Under the pieces are notes generated by a model, which saw nothing but the letters and a program-made list of their open reading frames with translations, was not told the DNA's origin and ran no database searches. Below, piece by piece: positions 8,206 through 31,611 of a stretch of DNA of 31,611 bases (position 1 is the stretch's first letter; every line of letters begins with the position of its first letter). Both the position numbers and the translations under genes were made by a program. This DNA comes from Octopus sinensis (Eukaryota): assembly GCF_006345805.1 (NCBI RefSeq), contig NW_021832197.1, forward strand, positions 1 through 31,611. Direction: 5' to 3'.

Positions 8206-8212
8206 AGATAGA

Positions 8213-8601
8213 AGGCAGCGAGCTGGCAGAATCGTTAGCACGCCGGCCGAAATGCTTAGCGGTATTTCGTCTGCCGCTACGTTCTGAGTTCAAATTCCGC
8301 CGAGGTCAACTTTGCCTTTCATCCTTTCGGGGTCGTTTAAATAAGTACCAGTTACGCACTGGGGTCGATATAATCGACTTAATCCGTTTGTCTGTCCTTG
8401 TTTGTTCCCTCTGTGTGTAGCCCCTTGTGGGCACTAAAGAAATAGGTATTTCGTTTGTCTTTGTGTTCTGAGTTCAAATTCCGTGGAGGTCGAATTTGCC
8501 TTTCGGTGTCGATAAATTAAGTACCAGTTGCGTACTGGAGTCGATCTAATCGACTGGCCCCCTCTCCAAAATTTCGGGCCTTGTACCTTTAGTAGAAAAG
8601 A
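8213..8601 (+). mobile_element. SINE family B, dimeric form
   Basis: A-box-like TGGCAGAATCGTTA, B-box-like GAGTTCAAATTCC, core gcctttcatcctttcggggtcg..aagtaccag, and a second partial unit from about 8445. Confidence 0.9.
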
Positions 8602-21134: not shown

Positions 21135-21781
21135 ATTCTGCTAAAAGCACAAGGCCTGAAATTTGTGGGCGGGGTGGGAGAATTAATCAACAGGTACATC
21201 GACCCCAGTACACAACTGGTACTTAATTTATCGACCCCTAAAGGATGAAAAACAAAGTCAACCTCGGCGGAATTTGAACTCAGACGAACGAAAAGCCGCT
21301 AAGCATTTTGCCCGGTCTGCTAACGATTTTAACAATAATATTCCTTTTTAATTGAAGGCGGCAAAAATCGTTAGCCGGACAAACTGCTTAGTGGCAATTC
21401 GTCCGTCTTTTATGATCTGAGTTCAAATTCCGCCGAAGTCGCCTTTCCCTTTTCTCATTTGGGGATCGATAAAATAAGTACCAGTTACGTACTGGAGTCG
21501 ATGTAATAGACTTGACCACTCCGCCGAAATTCTTGGCTCTGTGCCAACATTTTGAAGCCAGTATTGGTTTAAAATTTTAGCACAAAGCCAGCAATTTTGA
21601 AGGCAGACGGTAAGTTAATTACATCAACTCCAGTACATAACTGGGACTCTATTTTATCGACTTCGAAAGGACGAAAGGCAGAGTTGATCTCGACGAGATT
21701 TGATCTCAGAACGTAAAGACGGACGAGATGCAGCTAAGCATTTTGTCTGGCGTACTAACGGTTCTGCCATCTCGCCGCCTT
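21135..21781. mobile_element. Three adjacent SINE family B copies (-, +, -)
   Basis: Approximately 21135-21332 (-), 21357-21560 (+) and 21565-21781 (-), each with the B-box and the core. Confidence 0.85.
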
Positions 21782-23349: not shown

Positions 23350-24096
23350 AGCGGCAAGTTGGCAGAATCGTTACTGCGCCGGAAAAAACGCTTTAGAGGC
23401 ATTTCTTCCGACTTTACGTTCCGAGTTCAAATGCCGTCGGGGGTCGACTTCGCCTTTCATCTTCCGGGGATCGATAAATGAGCACCAGTTGAATGATATC
23501 AATTTACCCCCTCACCGAAACTATTGGTCTTGTGCCAAAATTTGAAACCAAAATTAAATTTCATTAAGGCGGCGCGCTGACAATCGTTAGCACACCGGAT
23601 AAAATGCTTAGCGGCATTTCGTCCGTCTTTACGTTCTGAGTTAAAATTCCGCCGAGGTCGACTTTGCCTTTCATCCTTTCGGTGTCGATAAATTAAGTAC
23701 CAGTTACGCACTGGAGTCGCTCTAATCGACTGACCCCCTCTCCCAAAATTTCGAGCCTTGTGCCTAGAGTAGAAAAGGATAGTCTAAAGGCGGCAAGCTG
23801 GCAGAAATGTTAGCACACCGGATAAAATGCTTAGCGGCATTTCGTCCGTCTTTACGTTCTGAGTTAAAATTCTGCCGAGGTCGACTTTGCCTTTCATCCT
23901 TTCGGTGTCGATAAATTAAGTACTAGTTACGCACTGGAGTCGATGTAATCGACTTAATCCGTTTGCCTGTCCTTGTTTGTCCCCTCTGTGTTTGGCCCTT
24001 TGTGGGTAGTAAAGAAATAGGTATTTCGTCCGTCTTTACGTTCCAAGTTCAAATTCCACCGAGGTCGACTTTGCCTTTCATTCTTTCAAGGTCGAT
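23350..24096 (+). mobile_element. Tandem SINE family B copies; the last is interrupted by a NUMT
   Basis: Heads at about 23350, 23568 and 23789, a partial unit from 24020, and a break at GGTCGAT 24090-24096. Confidence 0.9.
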
Positions 24097-26137: not shown

Positions 26138-27188
26138 TATATATTTTATAATATGTTATTATTAATATCAGGAAATCAATATTAGAAAATTCTTCAGAAA
26201 GATATACGTGTGTAAAATAATTGTTGTATTAAAAATATATACGTATAAAAATATACGTAAATGTATATAAGTATAAATATATAATGTATATGACATTTTA
26301 AAAGCTTTGAATTAAGTTTTTAAAGTATCTTACGATCGTTTCATAGAAGTGCTGTCCCTATAATGGAATCCTATATTGACAATATAATGGATTTTATACA
26401 TAATTATTATGGATTGCTACAGTAGAATTACCAAGGAAGCACATATGAATTTCAAGATTCTCATTCTAAAGTGTACTTACCAAAACCAAAAGCAGTAATT
26501 TTTAATTTATATTTCAAACAAACACCATTTTCCTATATTACTTCATAGTTTTTTTAAAAACTACCATTCGTAAATTTATACAAATTTCAAATTTGATATT
26601 ACCGAAGAGAAGAAGAGTTGTCTATAAATGCTTATCAATAAAGGATTCCATTATTCTATATTATCTAAGTCTATGAACTATATTTGGAATACAAGACAAT
26701 ATAATGGATTTTACACATAAATATTATGGATTATTACAGAAGACTAACCAAGGAAGTATATATGGATTTAAAGACTCTCATGCTAAAGTGTACTTACCAA
26801 AATCAAAAGCAGTAATTTTTAATTTTTGATTTATATTTCAAATAAACACCATTTTATAGTATTACTTCAAATTTTTAAAAAATTACCATTCGATATATTA
26901 TACAAAGTTCAAATTAGTTATATCGCTGAAGAGCAGAAGAGTTGTCTATAAATGCTTATCAGTATAGGATTCCATTATAGGGACAGCACTTCTGTGAAAC
27001 GATCGTAAGATGCTTTAAAAACTTAATTCAAAACTTTTAAACTGTCATATACATTATATATTTATACTTATACATATTTACATATATTTTTATATGTATT
27101 TATATTTTTAATACACGTATATATCTTTCTGAAGAATTTTCTAATATTGATTTCCTGATATAAATAATAATATATTATAAAATATATA
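26138..27188. mobile_element. Inverted plus tandem repeat structure, probably Penelope-like pLTR copies
   Basis: 26138-26379 is the reverse complement of 26959-27188. Direct repeats start at 26378 and 26695 (period 317). Confidence 0.8.
26920..27013 (+). ncRNA. Type I hammerhead ribozyme (weak stem I)
   Basis: CTGAAGA at 26926-26932; stem II GCAGAAG/CTTCTGT plus GTTGTC/GACAGC; GAAA at 26996-26999; palindrome ACGATCGT; GUA site at 27007/27008; stem I TATC(G)/(A)GATG. Confidence 0.75.
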
Positions 27189-29465: not shown

Positions 29466-30142
29466 AGGCGTACATCTGAAGTCCTGCTTTTGTATATTTT
29501 GGTCTCTAGGAAAAGGGTGGGCCCGTAGCTTTCGCAACCCCACACCCTACTCTTGAGGGAAGAAAGAGATAAAGAATATTTGTAGGCGTTGTTCTTGGTG
29601 TTGCTGTTTAGCCCCAAGTCAGTGCTGATAGAGCAAACGAGCCTATTATCATCAAGGAGCTTCCAGTCATGACCATCATGCAAAATAAGCTGCTTTTCAT
29701 TCTTTTTTTTTTTAGTCAAGAGAAAGGGCGCCGCTCATGAATCTTTACAGGCAATCTGAGGCTGGAAGGAGGCAGGAGTGGATGGGGAGTATTGTTAATT
29801 AAGAGACTCGATCCCCGAGTGTTCGTAACAGAGCGGATTCTGGTAAGAGTACCCGTGGTACGCAACGCGCTAGCCATTTGATGGTGTTAAACCGGATGAC
29901 GGATTTTGCATTTTTTTTTCCATGCTAAAAAACAATTTAATATTGGTTTCAAATGCTGGTACAAAGTCGATGTTGGTGGAATTTGAACTCAAAACGCAAA
30001 GACGGTGTGCAAATGATTCTACTAGGTATCTCCTTCGACAGCGATATAATTGGTTTCAAATCCTAGCACAAGGCCCCAGCAATTTCGGTGTTGTGGGTAA
30101 GTCGATCACATCGATCTTAGTAATCAGCTGATGGTTATTTTA

Positions 30143-30172
30143 TTGCAGTGTGGAAGGTGCTTGTAAACCATA

Positions 30173-30255
<83 letters not shown>

Positions 30256-30340
30256 CAAACGTTAGATTCACTTCAACATTTAAATTTAATTTGTCAAAAT
30301 ATTTTCGTCGCTTTGAAATCGTGACCTGTTCACTGACAAT
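30143..30340 (-). mobile_element. Copy 1 of element with G3-C8 variant hammerhead-like motif (motif 30291-30339)
   Basis: Minus strand: TTGTCA-GTGAACA-G-GTCAC...GCGAC-GAAA-ATAT-TT-TGACAA; homologous to 30943-31079. Confidence 0.65.
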
Positions 30341-30428
30341 ATATATATATACACACACACTTGAACATATATAAATTTTTATAATTTTATTCATATTTTA
30401 TAAATGAATATTTCATTATTTTATTAAC

Positions 30429-30463
<35 letters not shown>

Positions 30464-30942
30464 GTGTGTGTGTGAGTGAGTGTGTGTGTGTGTACACAAG
30501 ACAGAAAATGTCGGACAGACAGGTCAGTTATTCCTCTCCAATTTTTTTGTAAATTCTTTAATATATCTCCTTCTGTATGTATATATATATATATTGCCAA
30601 ACAAACATGATTTTTATTGAACTCAAAATACTTATTGTATTCCCTTTCTCGAATACTTTCTTGTAAACTGTTTTTAACATATTCTTATCATTATCAAAGA
30701 CTGTATAACTGTATTTTAATACTTCTGTGATTGATAACCATTTTTTAACACAACATAGCTTATACAAAGCTTTATATTTTACTTTTGATAATCTTTTTCT
30801 AAAAAAGTGAAACCGGTCAAGTCAATAAGTATCTCTAAAAGACCTTTGCATTTTCAAACCTTCTTTCATATATATTTTCACTCGTGCGGTACCTTACAAC
30901 TTTACTTTGTTTATGCGTATGTGTGTGTGTGTGTGTGTACAA

Positions 30943-31191
30943 TTGTAGCGTGGAAGGTGTTTATAAGCCATTTTAAAAAAACACACAAAAACCGTTAGAT
31001 TCACTACTACGTTTAAGTTTAATTTGTCAAAATATTTTCGTCGCTTTGAGACCGAGACCGCGACCTGTTCACTAACAAAATTCCGTGCTGTTTTTTTTTT
31101 GTTTTTTTAATGGCTTATAAACACCTTCCGCACTGCAAATGTTTTTGTTTCAGCACACGATCTCAGATCAGGTCACTTGCTACGCAAGTAC
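30943..31191 (-). mobile_element. Copy 2 of the same element (motif 31023-31079), with 30-bp inverted repeat
   Basis: Minus strand: TTTGTTA-GTGAACA-G-GTCGC...GCGAC-GAAA-ATAT-TT-TGACAAA. Inverted repeat 30943-30972 versus 31109-31138. Confidence 0.7.
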
Positions 31192-31199
31192 ATATACGT

Positions 31200-31340
31200 A
31201 AGTTATTTTATTGACCTCGCGAAAGTATAAAAGGCAAGTCGACCTCGGCAAGATTTGAACTCAGAACATAAAGAACTACGAATTACCCGCTGGGCATTTA
31301 GAGGTGTGCTAACGGTGTGCTAACGATTTTGCCAGCTCAT
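31200..31340 (-). mobile_element. SINE family B fragment
   Basis: aaggcaagtcgacctcggcaagatttgaactcagaac...gctaacgattttgccagctc. Confidence 0.75.
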
Positions 31341-31611
31341 TGTCTTTGTCAGCGCTATAATTACGATTGCTTTTATGCATCACAAGTCTATACGAGACAT
31401 CCTCTCAAAGTAAATAACGGAAAATTCTATGTTCTAATAGAACCGCCACGTTATGTTGGAGATCAAGATTACATTTTCGTATTAATAATACTGTTTCTGT
31501 CGCAATTAATTATTTTATAAAATATTATATATTTGAGAGGATTAATAAAGCTCGTTGATTAATTATCATTAGTCGCGATTGTGAAACCTCTTGCAAGAAT
31601 CAAGTTAATTC

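What the first reader, a model, noticed from the sequence alone, without database searches (positions are those of the whole stretch)
30291..31079. Natural G3-C8 compensatory hammerhead core variant in two copies
Both copies read stem I - GUGAACA - G - stem II - GAAA - AUAU - UU - stem I'. GUGAACA is CUGANGA with C3G and G8C changed together. Established: positions 3 and 8 form a Watson-Crick tertiary pair, and swapped double mutants recover activity. Stem I differs between the copies by a pairing-preserving C-G versus U-G change, and loop II varies freely. The triplet is the weaker UUU and there is one extra nucleotide after A9. Standard CUGANGA searches would miss this family.
Basis: partly seen in the sequence, partly recalled or inferred. 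Interest (0 to 1): 0.82.

Follow-up and report, generated by a model that had tools for sequence, protein, structure and literature searches.

The report
Swapped-core hammerhead in Penelope retrotransposon
The two motifs are decayed copies of a small hammerhead-type RNA carried by thousands of copies of a Penelope-like jumping gene, in which two paired core letters are swapped (G-C instead of C-G); other jumping-gene families in the same genome use U-A or A-U at that pair, which suggests the RNA likely still cuts itself, though cutting is untested.

Summary
Observation confirmed, on the minus strand (G3 at 30333 and 31072). It is not a two-copy oddity: 1,018 exact genomic matches with positions 3 and 8 left free (86 of the first 100 G3-C8, none C3-G8). 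The motif sits in the terminal repeat of a Penelope-like element (PLE; RT plus C-terminal GIY-YIG), with its predicted cut 56 nt before the ORF start. The real covariation is between families: the sister PLE family has U3-A8 plus three more compensated stem pairs, an outgroup PLE from a metagenome contig has canonical C3-G8, and a young Neptune-like family has A3-U8. The differences between the window's two copies are neutral decay. The extra base after A9 and the palindromic helix III are known PLE features; natural U3-A8 is published. I found no natural G3-C8 or A3-U8 in ten literature searches, but four key papers were unavailable, and this scan noted G3-C8 before in phages and protist PLEs. 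Cleavage is not shown: no 5'-end pile-up at the cut (1 of 76), dimer helix nearly unstable, and an older relative often has unpaired 3/8. New variant of a known kind.

The parts
30291..30339 (-). G3-C8 minimal type I hammerhead, copy 1 (G3 30333, C8 30328, extra G 30326; predicted cut between 30297 and 30296); one stem II pair broken
   Evidence: sequence
30142..30339 (-). 5'-truncated solo terminal-repeat (pLTR) fragment of the PLE family holding copy 1, with an expanded (CA)n inside; starts at stem I beside a (TA)n run
   Evidence: blastn against the ORF-linked copy L249
31024..31078 (-). G3-C8 minimal type I hammerhead, copy 2 (G3 31072, C8 31067; predicted cut between 31030 and 31029); 6-nt duplication in loop II
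   Evidence: sequence
30939..31090 (-). pLTR fragment holding copy 2 (without the tail)
   Evidence: (85% to L249 over 152 nt)
31093..31201 (+). inverted, 5'-truncated partner of copy 2 with the tail; holds the ORF start codon (ATG at 31110-31112) but no hammerhead
   Evidence: ORF continuation seen in L258
30780..30822 (+). third minimal hammerhead, U3-A8 core (U3 30785), U-U at 10.1/11.1, ACCGGU palindrome, GUC triplet; belongs to a different repeat family (about 30493-30938)
   Evidence: (U3-A8 in 29 of 31 copies from 30 loci)

Best explanation
The motif is the minimal hammerhead of a Penelope-like retrotransposon family, fixed with G3-C8 instead of C3-G8, and it likely still cuts the element's RNA, probably slowly and only as a dimer or with help from the element's protein. 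Shown: it lies in the terminal repeat of an RT plus GIY-YIG element, about 0.9-1.2 kb after the stop codon and, in tandem arrangement, 56 nt before the next ORF start; two subfamilies with different loop II and 3' UTRs keep G3-C8; related families keep a Watson-Crick pair at 3-8 with other letters. Inferred: transcription through tandem copies gives an RNA in which G3 pairs with C8 as C3 does with G8 in other hammerheads; helix III forms between the AAUAUU palindromes of two motifs; the cut after UUU separates the units and leaves a 56-nt leader on the ORF. The window's two copies are inserted, decaying products of reverse transcription from uncleaved RNA; they have no role of their own. U17 may be favoured because C17 would pair with G3 and close the core.
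For: [quoted passage not shown] Inverted 5'-truncated partners, two 3' end clusters about 60 nt apart and (TA)n neighbours match PLE insertions (PMC8557442; PMC11167929). Covariation: the sister family (51% protein identity) has U3-A8 in 23 of 26 readable copies, the same extra G and UUU triplet, and both-sided changes at stem II pair 10.3-11.3 and two stem I pairs (92.6% of cells paired against 29-53% for slid partners). Outgroup L393 has canonical CUGAAGA at the same place. A young Neptune-like family has A3-U8 in 29 of 30 copies. A common sub-lineage change (A to G in stem I, 67 of 205 copies) keeps pairing as U-G. No change at 4% or more at positions 3 or 8 in four runs bearing four organism codes. 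The double mutant partly rescues in a PLE hammerhead (PMC11167929).
Against: No cleavage was observed. Of 76 copies picked by a downstream anchor, 1 begins at the predicted cut, 52 begin upstream of stem I. The AAUAUU duplex is worth only -0.2 kcal/mol against -8.3 for ACCGGU. G3 is predicted to wobble-pair with U17 in about 60% of the ensemble. An older relative with the same stems mostly has non-Watson-Crick states: of 66 non-G3 rows, 32 U3-G8, 16 C3/A8, 8 U3-A8, 7 C3-G8, 3 A3 (counted by eye), and its tree does not settle whether these were amplified or are decay. C8 is changed in 17 of 196 copies, more than other core columns. In the one PLE tested in vitro, cleavage was not needed for insertion (PMC11167929). 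The A3-U8 and several U3-A8 motifs were found by a scan that required a Watson-Crick pair, so the 'always paired' tally is partly built in; only the sister family and L393 were found without that filter.
Confidence: 0.6

Rival explanations
1. The motif descends from a hammerhead but no longer cuts; it is kept as a structure (a binding or folding site for the element's protein, or part of the promoter and leader), and G3-C8 is a chance outcome or keeps only the fold.
For: No 5'-end pile-up at the cut; nearly unstable dimer helix and G3-U17 wobble; an older relative with many unpaired 3/8 states; cleavage dispensable in vitro in PAc (PMC11167929); Cervera and de la Pena allow for roles other than cleavage (PMC4209133).
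Against: The 3-8 pair is the tertiary pair of the active conformation (PMC3884650); a double transversion that lands on the complementary pair, beside U-A, C-G and A-U in relatives, while U4, G5, A6, G12, A13, A14, A15.1 and U16.1 stay fixed (those rows were chosen with an intact core pattern), is easier to explain by selection on the catalytic fold.
Confidence: 0.3
2. The motif hitch-hikes: a damaged ribozyme happened to sit in a very successful PLE lineage and spread without any selection on it.
For: Inserted copies decay neutrally; one master lineage can account for thousands of copies, so copy number is not independent evidence.
Against: Two subfamilies whose proteins differ by about 11% and whose loop II and 3' UTR differ keep core and stems; four both-sided changes separate it from the sister family with no inner pair broken in the typical copy.
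Confidence: 0.08
3. Chance resemblance to a hammerhead in an AT-rich repeat.
For: No Rfam hammerhead model scores it, even at E 10; GTGAACA is not enriched.
Against: Descriptor hits 3 against 0.02 expected; homologous position in relatives that carry canonical or published cores.
Confidence: 0.02

Closest known systems
Minimal type I hammerheads (min-HHRs) of metazoan Penelope-like elements (Cervera and de la Pena 2014, PMC4209133)
   Same: In the pLTR; no real helix III but a palindrome at 15.2-16.2; one unpaired base between A9 and 10.1; G10.1-C11.1; mostly solo truncated copies, some in opposite orientation; predicted to work as dimers with low activity.
   Different: Core pair is G3-C8; that paper reports C3-G8 and U3-A8 only (parts 1-2 of 4 read; one supplementary file could not be searched).
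Natural U3-A8 core variants (Perreault 2011, PMC3088659; Schistosoma Cercyon elements, PMC4209133)
   Same: Natural compensatory change at the 3-8 tertiary pair, missed by a CUGANGA descriptor.
   Different: U3-A8 is two transitions and keeps pyrimidine-purine order; G3-C8 (and A3-U8 in another family here) inverts it.
Engineered C3G/G8C hammerheads, including the Anolis PAc (Poseidon) PLE hammerhead (PMC11167929; review PMC8495972)
   Same: Same swap; singles dead, double partly rescued; motif near the ORF start; tail between two RT start sites.
   Different: Laboratory mutants, not natural; in PAc the cut is 26 nt inside the ORF, here 56 nt before it.
C-terminal-endonuclease PLEs with a zinc-finger linker (Neptune, Nematis; PMC8557442)
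   Same: RT plus C-terminal GIY-YIG, Cys-rich linker, (TA)n neighbours, inverted partners and tail.
   Different: This family is far from the genome's Neptune-like families, has TDKS for the DKG motif and about 65-70 extra residues between RT motifs A and B; resemblance to Nematis rows in that paper's alignment is a lead, not a test.

Membership tests
Hammerhead ribozyme | Core U4 G5 A6, A9, G12 A13 A14, A15.1-U16.1 in order around a three-helix junction | tested here: met
Hammerhead ribozyme | Literal C3 and G8 (CUGANGA) | tested here: not met
   G3-C8 in 173 of 198 distinct copies, C3-G8 in none
Hammerhead ribozyme | Watson-Crick complementarity between positions 3 and 8 | tested here: met
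   G-C here; U-A, A-U and C-G in other PLE families; older relative mixed
Hammerhead ribozyme | Helices I and II supported by compensatory changes | tested here: met
   both-sided changes at 3 stem pairs between families; these count as single events per family, and the structure was drawn from these sequences
Hammerhead ribozyme | NUH triplet at the cut | tested here: met
   UUU; U17 in 201 of 205 copies
Hammerhead ribozyme | Match to an Rfam hammerhead model | tested here: not met
   the canonical-core minimal motifs were not run as a positive control
Hammerhead ribozyme | Site-specific self-cleavage | not testable with these tools
   only assembled contigs were available; genomic 5' ends show no peak at the cut
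PLE minimal hammerhead | Located in the pLTR of a PLE | tested here: met
PLE minimal hammerhead | Extra base after A9, G10.1-C11.1, palindromic helix III region | tested here: met
   G after A9 in 189 of 205; AAUAUU palindrome
PLE minimal hammerhead | Stable dimeric helix III | tested here: inconclusive
   duplex -0.2 kcal/mol; prediction only
Penelope-like element | Single ORF with RT and GIY-YIG endonuclease | tested here: met
   1,042-codon frame with RT motifs read directly; Pfam GIY-YIG at 22.5 bits, cut-off 22.6, on the C-terminal piece; no Pfam hit on the whole frame
Penelope-like element | pLTR, inverted 5'-truncated partner, optional tail | tested here: met
Nematis or Neptune clade | RT phylogeny with named reference elements | not tested

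The most novel reading that the evidence does not exclude
All four Watson-Crick versions of the hammerhead's 3-8 catalytic pair are natural, active and selected in Penelope-like elements, and they coexist in one animal genome. The G3-C8 version is a slow, protein- or dimer-gated ribozyme that cuts 56 nt ahead of the ORF start and needs U17, because the usual C17 would pair with G3. PLE families called 'hammerhead-free' by CUGANGA searches may hide such cores.
Probability: 0.35. Interest if true: 0.7.

Novelty: new variant of a known kind. Interest (0 to 1): 0.52.

Why it matters
Whether the weak minimal hammerheads of Penelope-like elements really cut in vivo is open: activity in vitro is low and cleavage was dispensable for insertion in the one system tested. 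Families that keep a Watson-Crick pair at 3-8 while changing its letters (G-C, U-A, A-U, C-G) are comparative evidence that the active fold is selected, and they give a ready set of natural RNAs for one assay. It also shows that CUGANGA descriptors and Rfam miss abundant families, so statements that a PLE clade lacks hammerheads need a second look.

Tried and rejected
Rfam: no hammerhead hit in the window (109 rows, microsatellite noise) or on an intact copy. MITE reading of the inverted repeats round copy 2: rejected, the arms are 5'-truncated inverted copies of varying length and the element runs on into an ORF. Same-strand pairs 1-5 kb apart as pLTR pairs: the six stretches fetched were local duplications without a PLE ORF. 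Naiad origin: four motif strings absent from the Craig et al. supplement, and the endonuclease is C-terminal. The 30 best Pfam GIY-YIG loci did not hold the parent; it was found by walking upstream. G8 revertants as a sub-lineage: 7 copies in the tree do not cluster (368 of 500 random sets as tight). Double changes at 3 and 8: of 57 pattern hits, 15 were read; 13 belong to an older family and 2 are A3-U8 copies of this one. RNA evidence: no RNA holder listed with certainty, contigs only. Phage G3-C8 check: a narrow pattern gave 67 viral loci, none with a convincing stem I; this does not test the earlier phage notes. No PLE protein remnant in the window. No clear motif was found downstream of L098, L099, L102, L105 and L109. 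Papers not held: Lunse 2017, Hammann 2012, Przybilski and Hammann 2007, Martick and Scott 2006.

Full report
Observation. Both motifs are in the sequence, on the minus strand: copy 1 at 30339-30291 and copy 2 at 31078-31024. Each reads stem I (6 bp), GUGAACA, an extra G, stem II (GUCGC/GCGAC, one pair broken in copy 1), GAAA, AUAU, UU, stem I'. A descriptor for minimal hammerheads with any Watson-Crick 3-8 pair hits three places in the window and 0.02 on average in 200 shuffles. Rfam scores none of them.

The family. The window lies in a 2.72-Gb animal genome (its repeats look octopus-like to me, from recall, not tested). A 35-letter pattern with positions 3 and 8 free has 1,018 exact matches and its reversed control none; of the first 100 listed, 86 are G3-C8, 14 differ at one of the two positions, and none is C3-G8 (counted by eye). 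A downstream 23-mer has 3,723 matches. Among 205 copies in hand (198 distinct), 173 distinct ones are G3-C8. Core columns are changed in 2.6-3.0% of cells, control columns in 2.4%, so inserted copies decay neutrally, and the differences between the window's two copies are of that kind. Four public runs with four organism codes all hold the motif and show no change at 4% or more across the core, including 3 and 8 (contigs only).

The parent element. Copies are mostly 140-260 nt, often with an inverted 5'-truncated partner, with 3' ends in two clusters about 60 nt apart and (TA)n neighbours. Walking upstream through a microsatellite-rich UTR reached a C-terminal GIY-YIG ORF. Of 30 loci found with that protein piece, 21 carry the motif within 1.5 kb downstream, 20 of them with G3-C8, in two subfamilies with different loop II (GGUCUCAAA or GGUCUGAAA versus GGAUUUUA). 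L256 holds a 1,042-codon open frame with RT motifs, a Cys-rich linker and GIY-YIG; Pfam support is weak (22.5 bits on the C-terminal piece; nothing on the whole frame). In L258 the repeat's tail runs straight into the ORF start, which puts the predicted cut 56 nt before the AUG. This is the pLTR, inverted-partner and tail layout described for PLEs (PMC8557442, passages; PMC11167929, second half of the main text).

Covariation between families. The sister family (51% protein identity) has the motif at the same place with U3-A8 in 23 of 26 readable copies from 30 loci, the same extra G and UUU triplet, stem II GUUGC/GCAAC and stem I CUA/UAG. Against this family that is four both-sided changes: 3-8, 10.3-11.3 and two stem I pairs. 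On a 27-row alignment of three families (rows picked for an intact core pattern; 1 of 28 left out for an insertion) 92.6% of cells pair, against 29-53% with slid partners; each change is one event per family, not many. A related PLE on metagenome contig L393, outgroup to both (support 94/97), has canonical CUGAAGA with an AUUAAU palindrome 168 nt after the match end; the second contig, L394, ends before its UTR. Among Neptune-like families, a young one has A3-U8 in 29 of 30 copies from the 25 best-scoring loci, the 781-codon family has U3-A8, one copy has C3-G8 (L100, with G at 17), and the window's third motif belongs to a family with U3-A8 in 29 of 31 copies (its ORF was not established). 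These were first spotted by a scan that required a Watson-Crick pair, so they show that such cores exist, not how often mismatches occur.

Results against activity. An older family with the same stems I and II (65-80% pairwise identity; one locus of 27 with a remnant of the related linker) is mixed: 32 U3-G8, 16 C3/A8, 8 U3-A8, 7 C3-G8 and 3 A3 among 66 non-G3 rows; its tree is too weak to tell amplified mismatches from decay. Of 76 copies chosen by a downstream anchor, 52 start upstream of stem I, 20 inside the motif (12 of these one amplified composite), 1 at the cut and 3 beyond it, so integrated cDNAs come from uncleaved RNA, as reported for PAc. The AAUAUU helix that a dimer would need is predicted at -0.2 kcal/mol, against -8.3 for ACCGGU. 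G3 is predicted to wobble with U17 (probability 0.56-0.67), and to pair almost fully if position 17 were C (0.97-0.98). That fits a remark in PMC3884650 (passages) that an engineered G3-C8 is more active with G17 than with C17, and suggests UUU is a permissive triplet here; but the U3-A8 sister also has UUU, so it need not have evolved for G3. C8 is changed in 17 of 196 copies, 8 of them to G, without forming a clade; I cannot explain this.

Mechanism. Most likely (0.6) the motif is a slow but working ribozyme that cuts multimeric or read-through transcripts at the unit boundary, as a dimer or helped by the element's protein; PAc's hammerhead cleaved only with protein, its C3G and G8C singles were dead and the double partly rescued (PMC11167929). 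The location, the fixation of G3-C8 and the family-level compensation are shown; folding, dimerisation, cleavage and its purpose are inferred. A non-cutting structural role (0.3), hitch-hiking (0.08) and chance (0.02) are the rivals.

What is known. PLE minimal hammerheads, the extra base after A9, the palindrome, low activity and natural U3-A8 are in PMC4209133 (parts 1-2 of 4 read; supplement search negative but one file was not searchable). Natural U3-A8 and U10.1-U11.1 are in PMC3088659 (section 8). File S2 of PMC8557442 lists only CUGANGA cores. PMC8495972 (one passage), PMC6765202 (passages and part of section 11), PMC11014351 (term search, no hit on the swap) and PMC13725137 (passages; viral type I hammerheads in 5' UTRs with a role in translation) add context only. 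Ten full-text searches gave no report of a natural G3-C8 or A3-U8 core. Lunse 2017, with about 150,000 PLE-linked variants by my recall, and three other key papers were not held, so prior description cannot be excluded. Earlier notes of this scan report G3-C8 in phage hammerheads and in protist PLE tails; I could not confirm them here.

Verdict. A real, family-wide natural core variant of a known ribozyme kind, with better comparative support than two copies could give, and an unplanned second variant (A3-U8) in the same genome. Activity is untested. New variant of a known kind; interest 0.52.

Noticed in passing
L115:2065-2105 (+); L338-L362: Young Neptune-like PLE family with an A3-U8 hammerhead core (AUGAAUA), 6-bp stem I, short stem II, ACCGGU palindrome and GUC triplet; 29 of 30 copies. 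I found no report of natural A3-U8; a better assay candidate than the G3-C8 motif because its dimer helix is stable.
   Followed up: partly
window 30493-30938 (+), motif 30780-30822: A second repeat family with a U3-A8 minimal hammerhead lies between the two G3-C8 copies; copy 2 begins where it ends.
   Followed up: partly
L256:2952-6077 (-): The parent PLE has about 65-70 extra residues between RT motifs A and B although its endonuclease is C-terminal; PMC8557442 describes such an insertion for N-terminal-endonuclease clades. It also has TDKS for DKG and escapes Pfam.
   Followed up: no
about 20 nt upstream of G3 (window near 31090; L249 near 2985-2995): 30 of 76 copies start within a 12-nt stretch at CAG/ATG, just behind a sequence that looks like a branch point, pyrimidine tract and AG: a possible transcription start, splice acceptor or RT stop. 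Unexplained.
   Followed up: partly
L249:2962-3192, run X7: Eleven A-to-G differences on the element's sense strand against one in each of the other three runs: possibly A-to-I editing of inverted-repeat RNA, but the run is only guessed to be RNA and is from another organism code.
   Followed up: no
L263-L277, L308-L337: Older repeat family with the same stems I and II but mixed Y3/R8 cores; may preserve wobble or mismatch steps between C3-G8 and U3-A8.
   Followed up: partly
window 26231-27107: Element with 152-nt inverted arms (92% complementary) enclosing 1.9 copies of a 317-nt unit; foldback or MITE-like.
   Followed up: no
window 31203-31346 and five other places (8212-8503, 21223-21477, 23530-24087, 29934-30005): Copies of a separate dispersed SINE-like repeat, 73-79% alike.
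   Followed up: no
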